Positions 111-12,992 of a DNA stretch of 12,992 bases are shown one piece after another. Source of the DNA: Promethearchaeota archaeon (GTDB lineage Archaea; Asgardarchaeota; Thorarchaeia; Thorarchaeales; Thorarchaeaceae); the NCBI GenBank assembly GCA_027031765.1, contig JALVPN010000097.1, positions 1 through 12,992 of the forward strand, read 5' to 3'. How positions within the stretch are numbered: position 1 is the first letter of the stretch; the number at the start of each line of letters is the position of its first letter. The notes beneath the pieces were generated by a model that made no database searches, was not told the origin of the DNA, and saw only the letters and a list, made by a program, of their open reading frames with translations. The translations under genes and the position numbers were made by a program.

Positions 111-1115
111 CTATCCACTGGTTTCCAGCAGGTAGATGTTCCGTCCAACGGCCTGCACTATGTGTGTAACGCCTGTCCCAGTGATGTCCCCGGTGGCCAC
201 GAGAGACTCGACGGACTTCTTGGCCGTCTTGATGCTGGTGAGCTCCACAATACGGTTGCTCACAGAGGCCAGTAGGGCGAGCAGGGAGTTGTCATGGCTG
301 GCAAGGATCTGCATCTCGGGCCCACTGCCGGCTACGAACGGGCCGACAGCCAAGGATGTGATGGCACTGGGAGCCCGGACAGAGTCGAGCCGTTCAAGCT
401 CAGAGTGTCTGAACCTCCAGTAACTCAGGTTCCGGCCATCGGACACCACAAGTACGTCGTCAGTATGACCGCCCGATAGACGGCCCGTAGCAACATGCTG
501 TACCTCACCTTTGACCTTGGCGCGTGCGACCTCATGGAGCCGGTCATCAGCATACTGGAACACGTACACATGTTCAGAGTCGTCCCCAAACACCACACGC
601 CCATATGGGATACTATCAGCGTATAGTGCCTGCATAGAAAAGACAGGGCGGTCAACGACCTTGTGTGCCAGCTTGTCGAGGGCAATGTCGAACCAGCTGT
701 AGCACCGGAGCGCGTGGTCGTCTGTGGCGACAATCACTTCGGCTGCAGGGCTACCTGACACGTTCACCACACAGACCGCTGTCGGCAGGGTGCCCAGTGG
801 GAGCTCCCCGTGCGTCGTGATTGCGCCGTCCTTGTAACCCAGTATCCGTAGGGCATTGTCCTGACAGCCCACGACTATCTGATTTGAGCCAGAACCAATC
901 ACATCACCTGTGTCCATCGCCGACACCGGCGGGAACTCGCTGACCCGGGCTACCTCCACCAGCTCGGGGCCGCTCTCACAGGCCAGCAGGATGACCTCAC
1001 CGTTCATGGTGGCGACCACTATGTTGTCCTTCCCATCATTGGTGAGGTCAGCTAGGCCAACTGAGGCAACAACATCGGTAAGGGAATCCTCTGCAACAAC
1101 TTGGAGCTGTGTCAT
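111..1115 (-). CDS. Seven-bladed beta-propeller protein with FG-GAP/VCBS-like repeats, no signal peptide
   Basis: 334 aa with seven ~45-aa repeats: ADLTNDGKDNIVVAT, GDVIGSGSNQIVVGC, VNVSGSPAAEVIVAT, LYADSIPYGRVVFGD, GRLSGGHTDDVLVVS, GPFVAGSGPEMQILAS, GDITGTGVTHIVQAV. The pattern matches GDxxGDGxx-hhh blades. Confidence 0.75.
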   Translation of the reverse strand: MTQLQVVAEDSLTDVVASVGLADLTNDGKDNIVVATMNGEVILLACESGPELVEVARVSEFPPVSAMDTGDVIGSGSNQIVVGCQDNALRILGYKDGAITTHGELPLGTLPTAVCVVNVSGSPAAEVIVATDDHALRCYSWFDIALDKLAHKVVDRPVFSMQALYADSIPYGRVVFGDDSEHVYVFQYADDRLHEVARAKVKGEVQHVATGRLSGGHTDDVLVVSDGRNLSYWRFRHSELERLDSVRAPSAITSLAVGPFVAGSGPEMQILASHDNSLLALLASVSNRIVELTSIKTAKKSVESLVATGDITGTGVTHIVQAVGRNIYLLETSG

Positions 1116-1922: not shown

Positions 1923-2630
1923 TCAGGGGTCGCTGCTGGCTTCCGCACACTCCACGAGGTGTGAGACCGCCGGCATGACCGCCGGCAGCCCCAGCTCAAG
2001 ATAGACTATACCGAAGACCGCCTCCACGAGGGTGCCCTTGATGTGCTCGACCTCCGAACGGCAGGGAGCTGGTGGGTCGAAGTGAATCCTGTATTCGAAC
2101 AGGCGCCACCTGTCACACAGACGCGCAAGGTTGTGGTTGCTGACGATGCGGGCCCGTTGAACAGTCAGGTGACCGACCTCTGCTGGCCGTGGGCTCCAGA
2201 GCAGGTGTACGACCGCCATTGATATTGCTGCGTCACCTACGAGGGCCAGTGCTCTTGCTGCCTCGCTGAGCCATACCATGTCGCTCAGACGGCGGCCGAA
2301 CAGCTCAGCCCAAGGGCCATCATGGTGGGCCTCAAGCTCCAAGAAGAGGTTCTTTGTGCTCGGTTGGAACATCGCGACCACGAGCAGTTCCTTGTCATGC
2401 AGGTGGAGCCCCAAGACGCGTTCAAGGGACGGGACAAGCTCCGAGTACACCCGCTGGACCCCATCGCGGACAGCCCCGAGCTGGTGGACCCACCGCCTCA
2501 TCTTTGCGTGGAGGCGCTTGTGGCTGGCAGGGACTGATAGCAGCTGCCTGCGCACCGCGTCTATGAGCCCTGTGACGAGCTGGTCAATGCCTATTGGAGC
2601 CCACATGAGTGTCCGAGTGCTCGGGTCCAT
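1923..2630 (-). CDS. Ribonuclease III-family protein, Mini-III-like signature, no dsRBD, N-terminal helical extension
   Basis: LERVLGLHLHDKELLVVAM resembles RNase III LE..LGY.F.D..LL..AL. ALALVGDAAI is signature 1. LTVQRARIVSNHNLA resembles LT..RA.LV....LA. KGTLVEAVFGIVYLELG is signature 2. The protein ends shortly after, leaving no room for a dsRBD. Confidence 0.8.
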   Translation of the reverse strand: MDPSTRTLMWAPIGIDQLVTGLIDAVRRQLLSVPASHKRLHAKMRRWVHQLGAVRDGVQRVYSELVPSLERVLGLHLHDKELLVVAMFQPSTKNLFLELEAHHDGPWAELFGRRLSDMVWLSEAARALALVGDAAISMAVVHLLWSPRPAEVGHLTVQRARIVSNHNLARLCDRWRLFEYRIHFDPPAPCRSEVEHIKGTLVEAVFGIVYLELGLPAVMPAVSHLVECAEASSDP

Positions 2631-3425
2631 CTACACACCACCACCCCGTGGGAGGACGACTACAATGTCCGGACGGTCGCCGGTAAGGCCCTCAAGGAAT
2701 ACGGCAGTAAGGGAGTAGTCCAGAGCGACAAGTGCGAGGGCCATTGTTATGAGCGGGGGGCCATACGTGAGGTTGACCACCACCTCATGGTCGTGGAGGG
2801 CGTCCAGTACCAGACGCTCGATTTCAGAGTAGGTCGCAGAGAGGTCCCCATGCGAGGCCCCCACACCACGCCCCACAATGTCGTCTGGCAGCTCGTGCCA
2901 GTGGCCCTCCCAACGCTGCGACCGGTCATCCGGGACGTAGCGTTCTAGGTTCTTGGCAACACCTTTTGAGAACCTGTGCCCCTCGACCACCACATGAATC
3001 ACTCGCGGGGCGAAGCGACTGTCACGGAACACCCAACGCATCAGTCGCCGCTGGTCCTCGGGGCCTCCGAGAGAGGTGACCATACACTTTGGTCGCTCGA
3101 TTCCTAGGACTCGACGCACCGCCTGTACCACATGCGGATTCAGACTGAATATCCTCTGCTGCGAACGCTTCACACTGGTAATGATACCGAGAGACTCAAG
3201 GTGTCTGGTGTTGAAGTACAGCTTCGGGTCTGAGACCCGGAACTCATCAGGCCGTACCCTCTTACCACGGGTGCGCACAGTCTGGGCCATCATGTCTTTC
3301 CTGATGCTCTCACGCAACTCGCTGCCGGACTTCGGGCCACCCTCGAGCTGGTCAAGTATGACGCGTCTGGCCCTTACACTCTCGACCTCGCGGCGTATTA
3401 TGTCATCAGCAGACTGACCGAACAT
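2631..3425 (-). CDS. Winged-helix (ArsR-like) DNA-binding domain fused to a C-terminal CARF-like Rossmann domain
   Basis: N-term RARRVILDQLEGGPKSGSEL...SDPKLYFNTRHLESLGIITSVKRSQQRIFSLN is a wHTH. C-term CMVTSLG (CARF strand 1), PRVIHVVV and VVVNLTYGPPLITMALALVALDYSLTAVFL resemble the CARF vdlTgGxK..s.al..aa motif. ATG at 3425 preferred over GTG at 3428. Confidence 0.65.
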   Translation of the reverse strand: MFGQSADDIIRREVESVRARRVILDQLEGGPKSGSELRESIRKDMMAQTVRTRGKRVRPDEFRVSDPKLYFNTRHLESLGIITSVKRSQQRIFSLNPHVVQAVRRVLGIERPKCMVTSLGGPEDQRRLMRWVFRDSRFAPRVIHVVVEGHRFSKGVAKNLERYVPDDRSQRWEGHWHELPDDIVGRGVGASHGDLSATYSEIERLVLDALHDHEVVVNLTYGPPLITMALALVALDYSLTAVFLEGLTGDRPDIVVVLPRGGGV

Positions 3426-3449
3426 CACGCCCTGCAGCTATATACGGCA

Positions 3450-3459
3450 TATATATAAT
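3450..3459 (-). promoter_or_regulatory. Putative TATA box (ATTATATATA) for the wHTH-CARF/RNase III unit, probably leaderless
   Basis: Strong AT island about 25 nt upstream of the ATG at 3425, the canonical archaeal TATA-to-start distance. Confidence 0.55.
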
Positions 3460-3694
3460 GTGTAGATATCCCAGGTCTACGGGGCCTGGGCCGGGCACAC
3501 AGGGGCCAATACCCACGGCACATATGAGTGTGCAGCTATGTTCCCCACAGCCGTTAGAGAGAGTCCGTAGGCCGGTCTCTGGCGGAGAGGCCCACACAGT
3601 GGTGGTGAGACCGAACCCGGCCACCCCGGAACGCCTACAATATACACATATATCAAGTAGGTATTAGTGGTATTGGCGAGTAATCCAGACAAGG

Positions 3695-3702
3695 CTTAAA
3701 TA
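3695..3702 (+). promoter_or_regulatory. Putative TATA box (CTTAAATA) of the actin gene
   Basis: Purine-rich BRE-like AGACAAGG immediately upstream; implies a 5' UTR of roughly 80-85 nt before the ATG at 3810. Confidence 0.5.
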
Positions 3703-3809
3703 CATCGGAAATGGATATCCTAGCGGTCTGAGTCTGGATGCTTCTTTTGGTGTGTCAAGGGAAGCAGATGGGCTATGGTCAAGAACAAGAATGAAGAGGA
3801 CCGAGAAAA

Positions 3810-4949
3810 ATGGCTGAAGACGAGTTCCTTGGAGCCAAGCCGGTCGTCATTGACAATGGCACCGGCCTGACGAAGAACGGGTATGCAGGTGAAGACCAGC
3901 CACGGAGCGTATGGCCGACGTTGATAGGCTATCCACGCTACGAGCACGTCATGACGGACGTAGACCACTACACGCGGGACTACTACATTGGCGATGAGGC
4001 AATCAACCTCCGTGGTGTGCTACGCCTGATATACCCGATAACACACGGCAAGATTGAGGACTGGGACGCCATCGAGAAGATATGGAGCTACACGTTCTTC
4101 AACGACCTCAAGGTCGACCCGAGTGAGAACCCCGTGCTCCTGACAGAGGCACCATTCAACCCCCGCGAGAACAGGGAACGCATGGCATCTGTGATGTTCG
4201 ACAACTTTGGAGTCCCAGCGGTGTACATTGCCACACAGGCGCTCCTCTCACTGTATGCATCAGGTCGCACGACAGGGCTGGTTGTCGACTCGGGTGATGG
4301 TGTGACTCACATTGTGCCTATTTACGAGGGCTTCTCAATCAACCACGCCATCAAGAGGATTGACCTTGCAGGCAGAGACATAACGGAGTACCTGCGTCGA
4401 CTCCTCCGCCAGGCCGGGTACTCGTTCGTTAGCGGTGCAGAGAAGGAGATTGTCCGCGACATCAAGGAGAAGCTCTGCTATGTGGCCCTGGACCCTGAGA
4501 GAGAACAGACCGTCGCTGACAAGGCTGGTGTCGACAAGCCGTACATGCTGCCGGACGGCGATGTGATCACTATCGGTGCTGAGAGGTTCCAGGCACCTGA
4601 GCTGTTCTTCAACCCGAGCAACATCGGCCTGGACACCAAGCCACTGGACGAGCAGATAGTCGACTCGATCAAGGAGTGCGACGTGGACCTCAGACGCGAC
4701 CTCTACGCCAACATCGTCCTCTCAGGAGGCTCCACAATGTTCCCGGGCCTGAAGGAGCGGCTCCACAAGGAGATCACAGAGCTTGTCCCGGAGAACGTCG
4801 AGGTACGCATCATTGCCCCGCCCGAGCGGCAGTACTCAGTCTGGATTGGCGGTTCCATCCTTGCTTCACTGAAGACATTCCAGAAGATGTGGGTGAGCCG
4901 CAAGGAGTTCGAGGAGCAGGGGCCAGAGGTCATCCACAGGTGCATCTAA
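3810..4949 (+). CDS. act: Asgard actin (Lokiactin-type, eukaryote-like actin)
   Basis: 379 aa with actin signatures: [115 protein letters not shown]-term IHRCI. Confidence 0.98.
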
Positions 4950-5274: not shown

Positions 5275-6711
5275 ATGGACCACGCAGTCAGACTCGTGAG
5301 CAAGTACAGCAGGACAGGGGACAGGCTTGCGGACACATCTGCACCGAGTGATGTCTTTGACCGCGAGTTTGGGGCACAGATGACCGCGTGGGAGCTCCAG
5401 TGCATCAGGAGGTTCAGGGAACATCTCAGTGGCCGCAGGTACGTCTACCGTGGGTTCGTACACCACACGCGTGTATCAACACAAGTCCTGCTGAGTCCCA
5501 GCCCATGGATACTCGACGGCGTCATTGCGCTCCTCCCGGAAGGTGTCGGACCACCACCGGAGGCAGAGATGGTAGAGGTTGTAGGCCGCCGCGTCGCTGT
5601 GCCGGGTGTCACCCGCAAAGACATGGTGGCAGCAGTGATGGTCGAGGACATACGTGTCCTTGGCGACAGACCACTGGCAGGGGTCAGAGCACCACTCGGC
5701 ATGCCTGAAATCTCAGAGATGCTGTTCGAGCATGTGGGCATGCCGGAGAACAGTAAACAGGTCTTCACAAGACTGTTCATATCAAGCCCACCATACCTTG
5801 ACAGCATCGGGGGGCTAGCTACAGGGATACAGGCACTTGCAGCACGGCGCAATGTGAAACGGCTCCTCACGTTCATAAGACGTGTCCTCCCACATGCGAT
5901 TACGAGGGGTGTCAGCGAATACAGGCGGGTGAGGGGCGTACAGGTGCGCACCCCGCGTCTCTGGCGTATGAGAGTGGGCAATGTGGGTCGAAAAGAGATC
6001 CGTCGGTTGTGTGTGGAACGCAAAGACCCCCTTGGTTACAGGGAGGTGTCTGTCAGTACGATGGCAGACGGGAACACTGCTCCAATGCTGGACGTGCCGA
6101 TTGCGGTGAGCTACGATGACTTCTGGGTCGAACACCCAGACCCGAGGCTCCTCCAACTACCGGTTGTCAAGGCCGCAATCACATTCCACATGATGACGCC
6201 CAGAGTCGCGGCGCGCAGCATAGAGGCTGCAACGAAACATATCATTGCGCGGCTGGAACACCTCAGGGATGTGTTCGGGCTCCCGGACACGGCGCTGTCA
6301 CGTGGTCACGTACTCGATGCGGACCTGCTGGGACGGCCCATGAGCACGGTCCGGCTGGCCCGGTCTGCTGCAAGGGGGCTCTGGCGCGACAGGGTCACTG
6401 CAAAAGACCTGAAACACGAGTGGGACAGGGTGCTTGAACCAGCCCTGAGAGAGTTCATAGAGGTCGGAGAGCTGCAGATGACGACCGAGGAGATAGTCCG
6501 GGCAGGCGACACGGTGGAGCGACATGACACGTGTGTATGGCGGGCACTGCAGAGACTCGACACGGGGCAGCGTGGTAGCACCGGGCCGACAGTCGAGGAG
6601 ATTGCGCGGGAGGCGGGCGTTCATGTCAGCACAGCGGAACGGGCACTGGAGAGGATGAAGCGCGACTCCATGGTATACGAGCCACGCCCTGGTCACTACC
6701 GGATGGTGTAG
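5275..6711 (+). CDS. Divergent MCM-like protein (OB-like / degenerate AAA+ / C-terminal winged helix), predicted ATPase-inactive
   Basis: PPEAEMVEVVG resembles the MCM OB PGDRVxVTG. LLTFIRRVLPHAI resembles the segment after MCM Walker A. VVKAAITFHMMTPRV resembles LRKYIAYAR...P.L. GRPMSTVRLARSAARGLWRDRVTAKDL resembles TPRQLESLIRLSEA.AR..L...VT.ED. C-term ALERMKRDSMVYEPRPGHYRMV resembles the archaeal MCM WH tail. No Walker A, Walker B or SRFD motif. Confidence 0.6.
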   Translation: MDHAVRLVSKYSRTGDRLADTSAPSDVFDREFGAQMTAWELQCIRRFREHLSGRRYVYRGFVHHTRVSTQVLLSPSPWILDGVIALLPEGVGPPPEAEMVEVVGRRVAVPGVTRKDMVAAVMVEDIRVLGDRPLAGVRAPLGMPEISEMLFEHVGMPENSKQVFTRLFISSPPYLDSIGGLATGIQALAARRNVKRLLTFIRRVLPHAITRGVSEYRRVRGVQVRTPRLWRMRVGNVGRKEIRRLCVERKDPLGYREVSVSTMADGNTAPMLDVPIAVSYDDFWVEHPDPRLLQLPVVKAAITFHMMTPRVAARSIEAATKHIIARLEHLRDVFGLPDTALSRGHVLDADLLGRPMSTVRLARSAARGLWRDRVTAKDLKHEWDRVLEPALREFIEVGELQMTTEEIVRAGDTVERHDTCVWRALQRLDTGQRGSTGPTVEEIAREAGVHVSTAERALERMKRDSMVYEPRPGHYRMV

Positions 6712-6729: not shown

Positions 6730-7326
6730 CTACTTGAAATACTCCATGAACTCGGGCGGTTCCTCACCCTCTTCAACAAGGACAATCTGCTGGACACCGA
6801 CACGTTCTGCGTCATAGCGTCGTGCGAGGATTGTCGCGTCGAACTTCTCTCGTGCAGAGGCCTCGCGGCCGCGCCAGACCCAGATATGGTCCCACGCGTC
6901 GAGGAGAAAGACATCATCTGAGCGCAGTGAGTCGCGGCTCAATGGCACCTCTGCAAAGTAGGTGTCATCACCCTCTCGATGTATCCGGAACAACTTGTGC
7001 TCATGGGTCTCGAACTGCACTTTCCTGAGGATGCCCTCAGTGTCCTCCTCTGTGAGCCTGAAGTCATCGAACAGCGCTCTGAACTCGGGGGGCTCGTTGC
7101 CACCCTCAATCCGGTCGATGTCAGCTTCGCCCTTCCTGGCAGTGTCTTTCAGGACTGCAGCAGCTGCCGTCAGGAACTTCTCGTCCACCGACGAGCGTGG
7201 GCCAATCCACAGGTAGATCTTTGGCCCTGCATCTACAAGGTAGCAGTCGCCAAGGCCAAATGAGCCGGGATCCGGTACACGGACAAGACGACCCTTCTGG
7301 ATGTGATAGACAACTGGCTCGGTCAT
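6730..7326 (-). CDS. Two-domain gelsolin (Asgard 2DGel-type actin regulator)
   Basis: Two gelsolin repeats: GDCYLVDAGPKIYLWIG..SS.DEK...EGGNEPPEF and SDDVFLLD..DHIWVWRG..AS.REK...EEGEEPPEF, with linker EGILRKV. ATG at 7326 preferred over 7389 (198 aa; TATA 26 nt upstream). Confidence 0.92.
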   Translation of the reverse strand: MTEPVVYHIQKGRLVRVPDPGSFGLGDCYLVDAGPKIYLWIGPRSSVDEKFLTAAAAVLKDTARKGEADIDRIEGGNEPPEFRALFDDFRLTEEDTEGILRKVQFETHEHKLFRIHREGDDTYFAEVPLSRDSLRSDDVFLLDAWDHIWVWRGREASAREKFDATILARRYDAERVGVQQIVLVEEGEEPPEFMEYFK

Positions 7327-7351
7327 GAAGGAGAGTATTGTCAGGGGGGGC

Positions 7352-7358
7352 CTTAAGT
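7352..7358 (-). promoter_or_regulatory. Putative TATA box (ACTTAAG) for the gelsolin gene, leaderless
   Basis: 26 nt upstream of the ATG at 7326, and lies inside the longer ORF-caller extension, which supports the shorter start. Confidence 0.5.
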
Positions 7359-7556
7359 GATATGTGTACGGACGGCCAGTAGTCAGCACATCGGGGGAGG
7401 GGAGAGCAGAGGGCCACCCCCCTCCGACCCCACCCTTTCGACATCACGGTGGTACCGTGGGGGACATGCCTTGGGAGGACACGTGTGAGCGACACAACAC
7501 TAATGAGCGTGCTGGCACTCCTAGGATGTCACTGCGTTAAGGAGATGCACGGTGTC

Positions 7557-11373: not shown

Positions 11374-12219
11374 TCACTCGGGGCCCTCAGACTCGTGCAC
11401 CGCATCGAGCAGGAGCTTCCGGATGTCTTTCGACCGCTCAAGGGCCATGTCCATCGCAGCGTCAATCTGATCAAGGGACATGGGACCGACGCCACCGCCC
11501 TTCTGTAGTGCTGTGAAGTTGTCGTCCTCGTCCACGGCCATGGTCAACCGGCAGTCCTGTACCATCTCCTCGCGGAGCGTGGGGTCAATGATAAGGTGCT
11601 TACCGATGCGTGCAACAGTGCACTCGATTGCCAGGTTCCTGATAGGGACTGCAATCTCCTTGCCCGTGGGTACTGCCTGGTCGTCTTCCCAGCGCATCTC
11701 GGGGAACCTCGTGCGCAGGAGTGCTGCATTGGCGGCCAGCGACGAGGCGTCGATGAGGTTGCCGTCGTACTCCAGCGGGTAGATGTCACAGAACACCATA
11801 TAGACGCTCTTCCCGGGTTCGATGCAGAGGCGTTTGACATCGACGGTCTCGGACTCACGTACCCCACGGTCCACAACACGTGCGAGTTCGATGGCGTCCT
11901 CCTTTGGAGGACCGAGCTCGAACAGTGGTGACGCAATGGGGGGCATCTCTGCAGTGACCATCGTGACCCCCTCGTCAGGCGTGTCCGGGTACGGCTCACC
12001 TATGAGGACCTTTACGCCTGCAACGACTGTCGTGTTGCCGATGTGGACTATTGCGGAGCCCTCTGCCTTTGCCGGTACCACATCGAGTTCGATGCTGATG
12101 TCCCGGTACTCGTCGAAGGCCCGGCCGTCTTGGCGCTCCCCCTGGTCAAGGAGGTCGTTTATGAAGTGACGGTCAATCACACTGATTGTTTCACCACTGA
12201 AATCGCCCACCGCTATCAC
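11374..12219 (-). CDS. rrp42: Exosome complex component Rrp42
   Basis: RQDGRAFDEYR, AEGSAIVHIGNTTVVAGVK, PYPDTPDEG, FELGPP, ELARVVDRGVRE, DIYPLEYDGNLIDA, ALQKGG. GTG start overlaps the rrp41 TGA, preceded by GGAGGA. Confidence 0.97.
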   Translation of the reverse strand: MIAVGDFSGETISVIDRHFINDLLDQGERQDGRAFDEYRDISIELDVVPAKAEGSAIVHIGNTTVVAGVKVLIGEPYPDTPDEGVTMVTAEMPPIASPLFELGPPKEDAIELARVVDRGVRESETVDVKRLCIEPGKSVYMVFCDIYPLEYDGNLIDASSLAANAALLRTRFPEMRWEDDQAVPTGKEIAVPIRNLAIECTVARIGKHLIIDPTLREEMVQDCRLTMAVDEDDNFTALQKGGGVGPMSLDQIDAAMDMALERSKDIRKLLLDAVHESEGPE

Positions 12220-12992
12220 TCCTCCATCAGGTCAGCCTCACCGAGGTCGGGCTCCATGTCGTCATCATATTCCTCGTCCTCGTCCTCATCACGTGGTATG
12301 CGTTGCACATAAGCACGTTTCAGGGCTTCTTTCTGTAGCTCGTGGATATACTTACAGGCATTGATCCCCATCTGGATTGCCTCCAGCAGCTCCTCCTTTG
12401 TGAACGAGCCGTCCTGCTGGAGGAGCACCAGTTCTTCAGTGTTGGGCAGGATTGCCATTGGGACGTCGCCCTGTCCGTACTTGTCCTCTTCATCAGCCAG
12501 GTCGACTATGAGCACACCGTCCGCCTTCCCGACCGCCACCGCGGGCACGAGACTGCGCATTGGAATCCCAGCGTCGGCCAGCGCCAAGGATGCAGCATTG
12601 ATGGCAGCACACCGCGTACCGCCATCTGCCTGGATCACCTGTATGTATACGTCCACAACCGCCCGTGGGAACTCCTCAAGGAACAGCGCAGGCTGTAGCG
12701 CATTCGAGATTACCATTGAAATCTCACGCTCACGCCTTGATGGAGCGGGCTTCTTCCGGTCTGGGACAGAGAAGGTCGCCATCCGGTAGACGCACCGCAG
12801 GTATGCACGGTCGTTCAGTGTCAGGTGTCTTGGGTGGAGCTCCCGCGGACCGTACACAGCAGCCAGGATGTATGTTTTCCCCTGCTTGATTGACGCTGAA
12901 CCATCAGCCTGTTTCAGTACGCCGACCTTTAGCTCAATTGGGCGGAGCTCGTCAGGACGACGTCCGTCAACCCTGAGCCCCTCAGGACTGAT
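12216..12992 (-). CDS. rrp41: Exosome complex exonuclease Rrp41 (5' end outside the window)
   Basis: The frame is open to the window edge (ISPEGLRVDGRRPDELRPIELKVGVLKQADGSA...), so the ORF-caller start at 12857 is internal. Motifs: VYGPRE, RREREIS, QADGGTRCAAINAA, DLADEEDKYGQGDVP (phosphorolytic site intact). Confidence 0.98.
   Translation of the reverse strand: MSPEGLRVDGRRPDELRPIELKVGVLKQADGSASIKQGKTYILAAVYGPRELHPRHLTLNDRAYLRCVYRMATFSVPDRKKPAPSRREREISMVISNALQPALFLEEFPRAVVDVYIQVIQADGGTRCAAINAASLALADAGIPMRSLVPAVAVGKADGVLIVDLADEEDKYGQGDVPMAILPNTEELVLLQQDGSFTKEELLEAIQMGINACKYIHELQKEALKRAYVQRIPRDEDEDEEYDDDMEPDLGEADLMEE

What the first reader, a model, noticed from the sequence alone, without database searches (positions are those of the whole stretch)
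1923..3459. Candidate undescribed system: coupled wHTH-CARF regulator + RNase III operon, divergent from actin
Seen: the regulator's TAG (2631-2633) directly abuts the RNase III ATG (2628-2630), and one strong TATA box precedes both, so they appear to form a two-gene unit. Established: CARF domains sense cyclic oligoadenylates or RNA ends, and CARF-HTH factors (Csa3, RtcR) control defence and RNA-repair genes. No cas genes or CRISPR array lie in this window. Inference: a nucleotide- or RNA-signal-responsive switch controlling a dsRNA nuclease (antiviral dsRNA defence or RNA-damage response), possibly co-regulating actin through the shared intergenic region.
Basis: partly seen in the sequence, partly recalled or inferred. 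Interest (0 to 1): 0.8.

Follow-up and report, generated by a model that had tools for sequence, protein, structure and literature searches.

The report
Actin-linked CARF regulator with RNase III
A Thorarchaeon carries a tightly coupled two-gene operon, a DNA-binding protein with a CRISPR-type (CARF) sensor fold followed by a stripped-down RNase III, that sits head-to-head with the actin gene in essentially every Thorarchaeon; it looks like a core housekeeping locus tied to actin, not an antiviral system.

Summary
The regulator's TAG (2633-2631) abuts the RNase III ATG (2630-2628). One TATA-like box (3449-3458) lies 24 nt upstream of the regulator's ATG (3425).

Gene 1 is a winged-helix protein with a C-terminal CARF fold; it matches the PADLOC profile CARF_m5. 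Gene 2 has a genuine RNase III nuclease-domain fold. It has no dsRBD, and only two of the four canonical acidic residues remain (A129/D133/T200/E203).

In every Thorarchaeal locus with enough upstream DNA, the order actin <-> regulator-RNase III is conserved, with a gene gap of -14 to +19 nt.

The defence reading is not supported:
- The pair is single-copy, near-universal and fixed in place.
- Cas10 occurs in only 11 of 81 genomes of the family.
- All Thor proteins have lost the phosphate-binding Arg of CARF motif 2 (G-x-R became G-P-P).

Distant homologues of the regulator that keep G-x-R/K lie next to actin in at least nine other Asgard families. Those families lack the RNase III. So regulator-actin is the old core, and the RNase III is a Thor-lineage addition.

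This scan has noted the same arrangement before on other genomes. Function is inferred from synteny and folds only.

The parts
2631..3425 (-). Gene 1: wHTH-CARF regulator, 264 aa (P0001). ATG at 3425, TAG at 2631-2633.
   Evidence: Translation; 58 homologues, all from Asgard MAGs; AF2 model with pLDDT 87; PADLOC CARF_m5 at E 1.3e-21.
3105..3425 (-). N-terminal winged helix-turn-helix domain (residues 1-107). It includes the near-invariant recognition segment DPKLYFNT.HLE (3195-3230) and a Thor-specific basic insertion (residues 44-62, 3240-3296).
   Evidence: Secondary structure; invariant columns; Foldseek also matches ArsR-type SqrR; weak ArsR/SdpR NCBIfam hits.
2652..3089 (-). C-terminal CARF-fold Rossmann-like domain (residues 113-258).
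   Evidence: Foldseek against PDB: Cam1, Csm6, Card1, Cdn1, VC1899, Csa3 and ring nucleases, E 2e-5 to 1e-3, probability 1.00.
2754..2774 (-). CARF motif 2 (beta4-alpha4 loop), NLTYGPP. The Gly is kept; the basic residue two positions later is replaced by Pro.
   Evidence: Alignments A1 and A3. Non-Thor homologues read D-h-[ST]-x-G-x-[RK]. In Csa3a, Gly96 and Arg98 of this loop bind the cA4 phosphates (PMC8699464).
2847..2942 (-). Thor-specific insertion in the CARF domain (residues 162-193, with invariant W176). It is absent from the RNase III-less homologues.
   Evidence: Alignment A3; invariant W176 in A1.
1923..2630 (-). Gene 2: RNase III-domain protein without dsRBD, 235 aa (P0002). ATG at 2630-2628.
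   Evidence: Pfam Ribonuclease_3 at E 2.6e-12, above cut-off; AF2 pLDDT 90.7; VIA-align Z 14.8, rmsd 2.5 over 141 residues, to C. jejuni RNase III nuclease domain; it is the only RIIID gene in the genome.
2448..2630 (-). N-terminal helical extension of the RNase III protein (about residues 1-61; helices 15-32 and 38-73). It is conserved in the family and has no counterpart in bacterial RNase III.
   Evidence: Model secondary structure; family alignment A2; most VIA matches to bacterial nuclease domains start at residue 58-65.
2229..2252 (-). RNase III signature ALALVGDA. D133 (equivalent to E. coli D45) is kept; A129 replaces E41.
   Evidence: Invariant A129, G132 and D133 in A2; column equivalence from the profile alignment to Drosha LEFLGDA.
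2010..2039 (-). Second catalytic segment KGTLVEAVFG. E203 (equivalent to E. coli E117) is kept; T200 replaces D114.
   Evidence: Invariant K198, G199, T200, L201, E203 and G207 in A2; aligned to the ...FEALIGA segment of Drosha and T. maritima RNase III.
3438..3458 (-). Promoter of the operon: TATA-like TTATATATAT (3449-3458) plus a second AT-rich element (3438-3445), 13-24 nt upstream of the ATG. This implies a leaderless or very short-leader mRNA.
   Evidence: Sequence; ATATAT is present upstream of the regulator in 55 of 58 Thor intergenic regions.
3426..3809 (.). Shared 384-bp intergenic region between the regulator operon and actin (246-504 bp in relatives).
3695..3702 (+). Actin TATA box CTTAAATA, 108 nt upstream of the actin ATG.
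   Evidence: The core (ATTTAAG on the opposite strand) is present in 56 of 58 Thor intergenic regions, 75-130 nt from the actin ATG.
3796..3802 (+). Actin Shine-Dalgarno-like GAGGACC, 8 nt before the ATG.
   Evidence: GGTCCTC on the opposite strand is present in 55 of 58 Thor loci, 5-9 nt from the start.
3810..4949 (+). Actin gene (379 aa), divergently transcribed. It is the conserved partner of the regulator across Asgard families.
   Evidence: Pfam Actin at E 4e-134; adjacency.

Best explanation
This is a vertically inherited, core two-gene operon of Thorarchaeia, not a defence island.

Gene 1 is an Asgard-specific transcription factor of the CARF_m5 kind: an N-terminal winged helix and a C-terminal CARF fold, the reverse of the Csa3 order. 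Its ancient, conserved neighbour is the divergently transcribed actin gene.

Gene 2 is a dsRBD-less RNase III-domain protein with a reduced active site (D133 and E203 kept; A129 and T200 in place of the other two acidic residues). It was added downstream of the regulator in the Thor lineage. The same lineage lost the phosphate-binding Arg of CARF motif 2 and gained insertions in both regulator domains.

Inferred mechanism: the regulator, as a dimer, binds the shared intergenic region (3426-3809). It controls its own leaderless operon, and so the dose of the cell's only RNase III-type enzyme, and probably the actin promoter as well. The RNase III protein probably acts as a homodimer on structured or double-stranded cellular RNA, in the manner of dsRBD-less Mini-III, perhaps with a protein cofactor. 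The input sensed by the CARF domain is unknown. In Thorarchaeia it is unlikely to be a type III CRISPR cyclic oligoadenylate.

Shown: the folds, the operon, the conservation, the distributions and the motif states. Inferred: DNA binding at this region, control of actin, RNase activity and its substrate.
For: Operon and coupling:
- The stop and start codons abut.
- The gap is -14 to +19 nt in 61 Thor loci.

Folds:
- CARF.
- CARF_m5 profile at E 1.3e-21; an Odin-like homologue scores 2.4e-80 over the full profile.
- RNase III nuclease domain at Z 14.8 and Pfam above cut-off.

Core, fixed locus:
- Regulator in 72/76 and RNase III in 74/76 genomes of the family. Two of the four regulator misses have the RNase III at a contig edge.
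- One copy of each in this genome.
- The triad with actin is present in every Thor locus that has upstream DNA.
- Thor RNase III sequences form one group in the tree (support 87/95).
- Neighbours are housekeeping or cytoskeletal genes: actin, gelsolin, exosome subunits.
- No relatives on viral contigs.

Regulator-actin is the older pair:
- In 12 of 16 loci from nine other Asgard families the homologue is head-to-head with actin, and in one more it is co-directional. None of these has the RNase III.
- Those families scored 0 for the RNase III family.

Independence from type III signalling:
- Cas10 in 11/81 family genomes, including none in two closed genomes.
- Cas10 in 4/10 non-Thor carriers.

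Motif change:
- G-x-R/K in non-Thor homologues against G-P-P in Thor, read against Csa3a Gly96/Arg98 (PMC8699464).

Other points:
- Conserved promoter architecture on both sides of the intergenic region.
- dsRBD-less Mini-III is active as a homodimer and needs protein L3 for efficient pre-rRNA cleavage; its E106Q mutant is dead (PMC5141509).
Against: - No experiment or expression data bears on any step.
- The regulator-actin adjacency is embedded in a wider conserved block (Sua5, an NTP-transferase, a CDP-alcohol phosphatidyltransferase, ComB). Part of the synteny may therefore be inheritance without a regulatory link.
- No operator shared by all Thor loci was found. A TTCGAA-type palindrome sits at a fixed place upstream of the actin TATA in only 26 of 58 loci, and not in this window.
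- Two of the four canonical metal-binding acidic residues are missing, so nuclease activity is not assured. RNase III-fold proteins without activity exist: mitoribosomal chains score Z 14.5.
- This particular genome does carry two type III loci with GGDD Cas10 and a Csm6-like effector, so cOA sensing cannot be excluded here.
- Outside Thorarchaeia the RNase III family has no consistent neighbour that would hint at a substrate.
Confidence: 0.6

Rival explanations
1. First reader's reading. The CARF domain senses a cyclic oligoadenylate or a 2',3'-cyclic-phosphate RNA end, switches on the operon, and releases a dsRNA nuclease as an antiviral or RNA-damage response.
For: - CARF fold.
- This genome has two type III loci with GGDD-bearing Cas10 and a CARF-HEPN Csm6-like gene.
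- PADLOC lists CARF_m5 among candidate defence-related profiles.
- Csa3 and RtcR are precedents for CARF-linked transcription control (established knowledge; Csa3 in PMC8699464).
Against: - Cas10 is in only 11/81 family genomes, while the pair is in about 95%.
- No SMODS cyclase in this genome.
- The motif 2 Arg that binds the cA4 phosphates is lost in all Thor members.
- The locus is single-copy, fixed and vertically inherited, beside actin and housekeeping genes, unlike patchy defence islands.
- No PADLOC hit for the RNase.
- None on viral contigs.
- An RNA-end sensor of the RtcR type is not excluded by these data.
Confidence: 0.1
2. The two proteins work as one complex. In Thorarchaeia the wHTH-CARF protein was re-purposed as the substrate-recognition or gating partner of the dsRBD-less RNase III, as DGCR8 serves Drosha or L3 serves Mini-III. 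The control would then be post-transcriptional rather than, or as well as, transcriptional.
For: - Tight coupling, which suits equimolar synthesis.
- The RNase lacks any RNA-binding domain.
- The Thor regulator differs from its RNase-less relatives by a basic insertion in the wHTH, a 32-residue insertion with invariant W176 in the CARF domain, and loss of the motif 2 Arg. All of these coincide with the gain of the RNase.
- The sister family of the same order (locus L098) has neither the insertions nor the RNase.
- Mini-III depends on a protein cofactor (PMC5141509).
Against: - No direct evidence of contact.
- The RNase III family works without this regulator in Methanomicrobiales and some other Asgard lineages.
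- The wHTH recognition segment stays almost invariant between Thor and non-Thor homologues, which argues for a retained DNA target.
Confidence: 0.2
3. The RNase III-domain protein is catalytically dead. It serves as an RNA-binding or structural protein, as the RNase III-fold proteins of mitochondrial ribosomes do.
For: - A129 and T200 replace two of the four canonical acidic residues, and this is invariant across the family.
- Mitoribosomal RNase III-fold chains are among the best structural matches (Z 13.4-14.5).
Against: - D133 and E203 are invariant. They correspond to the two residues generally regarded as indispensable (my recollection of E. coli mutagenesis; the Mini-III E106Q mutant is dead, PMC5141509).
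- There is strong conservation around both catalytic segments.
- By my recollection, and by an earlier scan note, Mini-III has the same reduced set and is active. This was not verified here.
Confidence: 0.15
4. The neighbourhood with actin is inherited gene order with no regulatory meaning. The regulator controls only its own operon or distant targets.
For: - The adjacency lies in a wider syntenic block shared by several Asgard families.
- In three loci from two further families (f7 and f28) the homologue is kept but actin is elsewhere.
- No universal operator was found.
Against: - Regulator-actin is the most widely kept adjacency of the block: 10 families, against 8 or fewer for the others.
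- It is always immediate and almost always head-to-head.
- Gene order between archaeal classes rarely survives outside functional units (established knowledge).
Confidence: 0.2

Closest known systems
CARF_m5 (PADLOC-DB profile PDLC01987, 'CARF_m5--CARF'; the name follows the CARF classification of Makarova et al. 2020, which I could not read here)
   Same: P0001 matches at E 1.3e-21 (residues 63-244 against profile positions 29-186 of 195). Its RNase-less, actin-linked homologues match the whole profile at E 2e-80 to 2e-34. The architecture is the same: wHTH then CARF.
   Different: The Thor branch is divergent. It carries two insertions, lacks the basic residue of motif 2, and has an RNase III gene coupled downstream. 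The papers I could search mention neither the actin link nor the RNase link.
Csa3 (CARF-wHTH transcription factor of type I-A/III CRISPR loci; PDB 2wte, 6wxq)
   Same: A CARF domain fused to a winged helix; structural match at E 2.6e-4; a motif 2 Gly-containing loop after strand 4.
   Different: The domain order is reversed; there is no CRISPR association; the Arg98 equivalent is Pro.
HFX_2341 of Haloferax mediterranei (Pfam PF19810 plus a winged helix; a global repressor that also represses cas genes; PMC11434293)
   Same: An archaeal regulator with a Csa3-like Rossmann domain, conserved in species without CRISPR. P0001 has a weak match to PF19810 (E 0.075, residues 193-235). Atlas neighbours carry PF19810.
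   Different: The match is far below the Pfam cut-off, and the domain order is opposite (HFX_2341_N is N-terminal).
RtcR (bacterial CARF-AAA+-HTH activator of the rtcBA RNA-repair operon)
   Same: A CARF-containing transcription factor that controls RNA-metabolism genes independently of CRISPR (established knowledge).
   Different: There is no AAA+ sigma-54 activator domain and no rtcBA genes at this locus. Homology beyond the CARF fold was not tested.
Mini-III (MrnC; class 4 RNase III; PDB 4oun, 6tnn)
   Same: A single RNase III domain with no dsRBD. Mini-III acts as a homodimer, matures 23S rRNA and needs protein L3 for efficient cleavage (PMC5141509, PMC8708148). An earlier scan note (e1-705126) and my recollection say that it shares the reduced acidic set.
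   Different: Sequence similarity is only marginal (4oun at E 0.44 against the family profile). The Asgard protein is about 90 residues longer and has a conserved N-terminal helical hairpin. I could not align the active-site columns to Mini-III directly.
Asgard Rnc next to Argonaute (rnc-asAgo-helicase clusters; bioRxiv 10.1101/2023.12.14.571608)
   Same: An RNase III-domain gene in Asgard archaea. [quoted passage not shown]
   Different: Those Rnc proteins carry a dsRBD and flank Argonaute. This one has no dsRBD and flanks a CARF regulator and actin. The genome's single Piwi-domain gene lies on another contig.

Membership tests
CARF domain superfamily | Rossmann-like alpha/beta fold that superposes on solved CARF domains | tested here: met
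   AF2 model with pLDDT 87. The 37 best Foldseek matches in PDB are all CARF proteins, E 2.4e-5 to 1e-3, probability 1.00.
CARF domain superfamily | Sequence-profile match to a curated CARF family | tested here: met
   PADLOC CARF_m5 at E 1.3e-21 and CARF1 at E 3.6e-5. No Pfam family is above its cut-off.
CARF domain superfamily | Motif 2 after strand 4: [DN]-x-[ST]-x-G-x-[RK], whose Gly and Arg bind the ligand phosphates in Csa3a | tested here: not met
   The window protein reads N-L-T-Y-G-P-P, and none of the 34 aligned Thor sequences has R or K at that place. The RNase-less homologues mostly do, except L098. Reference contacts are from PMC8699464.
CARF domain superfamily | Binds a cyclic oligoadenylate or other nucleotide ligand at the dimer interface | not testable with these tools
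   Needs ITC, thermal shift or a structure.
Csa3 family | CARF N-terminal and wHTH C-terminal | tested here: not met
   The model has the wHTH at residues 1-107 and the CARF domain at 113-258.
Csa3 family | Encoded in or beside CRISPR-cas loci | tested here: not met
   No cas gene in the window. The type III loci lie on other contigs. Cas10 is in 11/81 family genomes.
RNase III superfamily | RNase III nuclease-domain fold and Pfam PF00636 above its gathering score | tested here: met
   PF00636 at 47.9 bits against a cut-off of 27. VIA Z 14.8, rmsd 2.5 over 141 residues, to 3n3w.
RNase III superfamily | Four conserved acidic metal-binding residues (E. coli E41, D45, D114, E117) | tested here: not met
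   A129, D133, T200 and E203 are each invariant in 32 family members. Column equivalence comes from the alignments to Drosha and T. maritima RNase III. Two of the four are kept.
Bacterial class 1 RNase III (Rnc; TIGR02191) | Nuclease domain plus a C-terminal dsRBD; equivalog score | tested here: not met
   TIGR02191 scores 31.1 bits against a cut-off of 166. There is no dsrm hit, and the model is all-helical to its end at residue 235.
Mini-III (class 4 RNase III) | Consists solely of the catalytic domain | tested here: inconclusive
   There is no dsRBD (met), but a conserved helical extension of about 60 residues precedes the domain. Sequence match to 4oun is only E 0.44. Mini-III chains did not appear among the 50 entries listed by VIA.
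Anti-phage defence system (any PADLOC system) | Component profiles of a known system; patchy, mobile distribution | tested here: not met
   The RNase has no PADLOC hit; the regulator hits only stand-alone CARF profiles. Distribution is near-universal and fixed within the family. None on viral contigs.

The most novel reading that the evidence does not exclude
CARF_m5 is an ancestral, ligand-gated transcription factor of the Asgard actin gene: a small-molecule or RNA signal sets cytoskeleton expression in the closest prokaryotic relatives of eukaryotes. In Thorarchaeia this sensor was rewired. It lost the nucleotide-phosphate clamp, gained new surfaces, and captured the cell's only RNase III, so that control of the actin locus is coupled to double-stranded-RNA processing, possibly through a regulator-RNase complex.
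Probability: 0.25. Interest if true: 0.85.

Novelty: new variant of a known kind. Interest (0 to 1): 0.6.

Why it matters
How Asgard archaea regulate their eukaryote-like cytoskeleton is unknown. A sensor-type transcription factor kept head-to-head with actin in at least ten Asgard families, Thorarchaeia included, is a concrete and cheap lead: EMSA, ligand screens and DAP-seq on recombinant proteins would test it.

The locus also shows a CARF domain living outside CRISPR signalling and changing its ligand loop at the point in evolution where it gains an RNase partner.

It adds a near-universal RNase III-type enzyme to an archaeal class. [quoted passage not shown]

The same RNase family is present in cultured Methanoculleus species, so its activity can be studied in a cultured organism. 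I did not check how genetically tractable Methanoculleus is.

Tried and rejected
- Complex prediction on regulator plus RNase III: no verdict (score 0.11 against a mark of 0.32). This is not evidence either way.
- The look-up of sequencing runs, kind rna: no RNA holder was listed, so co-transcription could not be checked.
- Rfam scan of the window at E up to 1: no match.
- Folding of the GC-rich middle of the intergenic region on both strands: z-scores -1.2 and -0.6, so no sign of a structured RNA. GC there is about the same as the genome.
- Operator search. An AT-rich palindrome-like element overlaps the regulator's TATA in several loci, but its information content is too low to call. TTCGAA or CGA-W(3-6)-TCG lies at -21 to -32 of the actin TATA in 26 of 58 Thor loci (28 have it anywhere in the intergenic region, against a shuffled mean of 6.6 anywhere), but not in this window, and kin are not independent.
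- A special affinity of the RNase to Drosha. The low E-value (2.7e-11) is the sum over two domains. Per domain it scores 23 bits, about the same as the whole-sequence score of 25 bits for bacterial RNase III. Rejected.
- Direct residue alignment to Mini-III. 4oun and 6tnn never ranked high enough to be printed, so the 'Mini-III-type active site' stays unverified here.
- Makarova et al. 2020 (CARF classification) is not held in the library, so what its authors said about CARF_m5 is unknown to me.
- Gene neighbours of the RNase III family in Methanoculleus and in an MK-D1-like genome (geranylgeranyl reductase, MatE, radical-SAM activase, AAA ATPase): no recurring partner.
- Viral contigs: no relatives of either protein in a pattern-based scan.
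Full report
**The observation**

On the minus strand an ORF runs from the ATG at 3425 to the TAG at 2633-2631. The next triplet, 2630-2628, is the ATG of a second ORF that ends at 1923. A TATA-like TTATATATAT lies at 3449-3458, 24 nt upstream of the first ATG, which suggests a leaderless or short-leader mRNA. Nothing TATA-like precedes the second gene. The description is therefore correct.

It is also not a chance juxtaposition. In 61 related loci the distance between the two genes is -14 to +19 nt (starts are inferred and so approximate).

**Gene 1**

The 264-residue product has no Pfam family above cut-off. All 58 of its close homologues come from Thorarchaeota-type Asgard MAGs.

An AlphaFold2 model built on 34 of them (pLDDT 87) shows a winged helix (residues 1-107) followed by a Rossmann-like domain (113-258). 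Foldseek against the PDB returns only CARF proteins in the first 37 places: Cam1, Csm6, Card1, Cdn1, VC1899, Csa3 and ring nucleases.

The PADLOC profile 'CARF_m5--CARF' matches at E 1.3e-21. The family already has a name in a defence-oriented profile library.

**Gene 2**

The 235-residue product scores above the Pfam cut-off for Ribonuclease_3. Its model (pLDDT 90.7) superposes on bacterial RNase III nuclease domains at Z 14.8, rmsd 2.5 over 141 residues.

It has no dsRBD, and it fails the bacterial Rnc equivalog (31 bits against a cut-off of 166). A conserved helical hairpin of about 60 residues precedes the domain.

In the family alignment the positions of the four canonical acidic residues read A129, D133, T200 and E203, each invariant. 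Two of the four are kept. E203 corresponds to the residue whose E106Q change kills Mini-III (PMC5141509).

I could not align Mini-III itself, so the 'Mini-III-type site' proposed by an earlier scan note remains a lead. This is the only RNase III-domain gene in the genome.

**Conservation of the pair**

A scan of one genome per species returned 80 loci.
- In every Thorarchaeal locus with enough upstream DNA the order is actin (opposite strand), regulator, RNase III.
- In a sample of 300 genomes of the phylum, the regulator is in 72 of 76 genomes of the window's family and the RNase III in 74 of 76.
- Two of the four genomes that 'lack' the regulator have the RNase III at a contig edge.
- The Thor RNase III sequences form one group in a maximum-likelihood tree (support 87/95). 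The nearest group is a Methanomicrobiales clade, with weak support.

**What is older: regulator with actin**

The same profile search found distant homologues (220-250 aa, E 1e-15 to 1e-27) in other Asgard families, among them genomes of 1.4 Mb that look like Odinarchaeia.

I fetched 16 such loci.
- In 12 the homologue lies head-to-head with actin.
- In one it lies directly upstream of actin on the same strand.
- In three, actin is elsewhere.
- None has the RNase III, and these families scored 0 for the RNase III family.

Conversely, the RNase III family occurs sporadically in other Asgard families and in Methanomicrobiales without the regulator. The two genes thus coincide only in the Thor family. 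There the RNase III was inserted behind a regulator that was already paired with actin.

The adjacency is part of a wider conserved block (Sua5, an NTP-transferase, a CDP-alcohol phosphatidyltransferase, ComB). It is the most widely kept link of that block.

**The sensor changed when the RNase arrived**

The RNase-less homologues mostly carry D-h-[ST]-x-G-x-[RK] after strand 4; L098 is the exception (see below). This is the classical CARF motif 2. In Csa3a its Gly96 and Arg98 hold the cA4 phosphates (PMC8699464).

All 34 aligned Thor proteins keep the Gly or Ala position but never the basic residue; the usual reading is G-P-P. Relative to the RNase-less homologues, the Thor proteins also have a basic insertion in the winged helix and a 32-residue insertion with an invariant Trp in the CARF domain.

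The one homologue from the sister family of the same order (L098) has neither the insertions nor the RNase III. It too lacks the basic residue.

The recognition segment of the winged helix stays almost invariant across all groups, which suggests a retained nucleic-acid target.

**Defence or housekeeping**

This genome does hold two type III loci with GGDD Cas10 and a Csm6-like CARF-HEPN gene. No SMODS cyclase was found.

However:
- Cas10 is found in only 11 of 81 genomes of the family, and in neither of two closed ones.
- Cas10 is found in 4 of 10 non-Thor carriers of the regulator.
- The locus is single-copy and fixed in place.
- It is flanked by actin, gelsolin and exosome genes.
- Neither protein has relatives on viral contigs.

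These features fit a core cellular function. They do not fit a cOA-triggered antiviral switch.

**The intergenic region**

Thor loci share a fixed architecture.
- On the actin side: a CTTAAATA TATA box 75-130 nt upstream of the ATG, a conserved segment near the expected transcription start, and a GAGGACC ribosome-binding site 5-9 nt from the ATG.
- On the regulator side: an ATATAT box about 25 nt from the start.

A TTCGAA-type palindrome sits 21-32 nt upstream of the actin TATA in 26 of 58 loci, but not in this window. I could not define a universal operator. The middle of the window's spacer shows no RNA-structure signal and no Rfam match.

**Mechanism proposed**

*Shown:*
- a conserved bicistronic operon of a wHTH-CARF protein and a reduced RNase III-domain protein;
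- its fixed pairing with actin;
- its independence from Cas10;
- the lineage-specific change of the ligand loop.

*Inferred:*
- the regulator binds the shared spacer as a dimer;
- it sets transcription of its own operon and probably of actin;
- the RNase III protein cleaves structured cellular RNA as a homodimer, perhaps helped by a protein partner.

Whether that partner is the regulator itself is open. The one complex prediction allowed gave no verdict.

**Literature and earlier scan notes**

[quoted passage not shown] A 2023 preprint reports dsRBD-bearing Rnc genes beside Asgard Argonautes (10.1101/2023.12.14.571608), which is a different arrangement. Full-text searches found nothing that links CARF, actin and RNase III in Asgard archaea.

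This scan has met the same arrangement on other genomes. Two follow-ups reached similar readings (e1-705126, e1-5237489). I found the actin link independently (before). The CARF_m5 lead came from the second note, and I confirmed it.

**Verdict**

This is a new variant of known kinds (CARF-HTH regulators; dsRBD-less RNase III) with an unusual and deeply conserved link to Asgard actin. Interest 0.6.

Noticed in passing
Own genome, contig C139:25870-27816 and neighbours (locus L088), and contig C69:262-9329 (locus L089): Two type III CRISPR-Cas loci. One is a Cmr-type locus (Cmr2/Cas10 with GGDD, Cmr3, RAMPs). The other has an 846-aa Cas10-like protein with GGDD, RAMP fusions and a 577-aa CARF-HEPN (Csm6-like) gene.
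   Followed up: partly
Own genome, contig C6:19418-20191 (locus L122): A single Piwi-domain Argonaute-like ORF (697 aa open frame), on a contig other than the one carrying the RNase III gene.
   Followed up: no
window 3695-3809 and the matching part of loci L002-L081: The actin promoter and 5' leader are strikingly conserved across Thorarchaeia: an invariant CTTAAATA, a conserved AG.ACAGAGTT-like segment about 30 nt downstream of it, and GAGGACC 5-9 nt before the ATG. This implies a leader of roughly 50-100 nt, which is unusual for archaea.
   Followed up: partly
loci L005, L006, L008, L009, L033, L050, L058 and others, 21-32 nt upstream of the actin TATA: A palindromic TTCGAA or CGA-W(3-6)-TCG element at a fixed position in 26 of 58 Thor loci. 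It is a candidate operator, and it is absent from this window.
   Followed up: partly
loci L068-L080: Full-length homologues of the RNase III-domain protein (35-42% identity) occur in Methanomicrobiales, including cultured Methanoculleus species, without the regulator or actin. In the tree they group next to the Thor sequences, with weak support, which hints at transfer between the two lineages.
   Followed up: partly
loci L091, L092, L094-L096, L101, L103 and Thor loci L002, L020, L029, L047: A wider syntenic block around the regulator is shared by several Asgard families: Sua5/YrdC, an NTP-transferase with a hexapeptide-repeat tail, a CDP-alcohol phosphatidyltransferase, ComB (2-phosphosulfolactate phosphatase) and, in some, CGI-121.
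   Followed up: partly
window 5275-6711 (+), 6730-7389 (-), 111-1115 (-), 11374-12992 (-): The window also holds a 478-aa protein with only a weak DUF5817_CT hit, a two-domain gelsolin, an FG-GAP/BBS-like beta-propeller, and the exosome subunits Rrp41 and Rrp42. The surroundings are therefore rich in eukaryote-like genes and not defence-related.
   Followed up: no
protein atlas neighbours of P0001: The second-nearest Atlas cluster (score 0.91; 157 members, 240 aa) is labelled mostly Bathyarchaeota. The wHTH-CARF kind may therefore reach beyond Asgard archaea.
   Followed up: no
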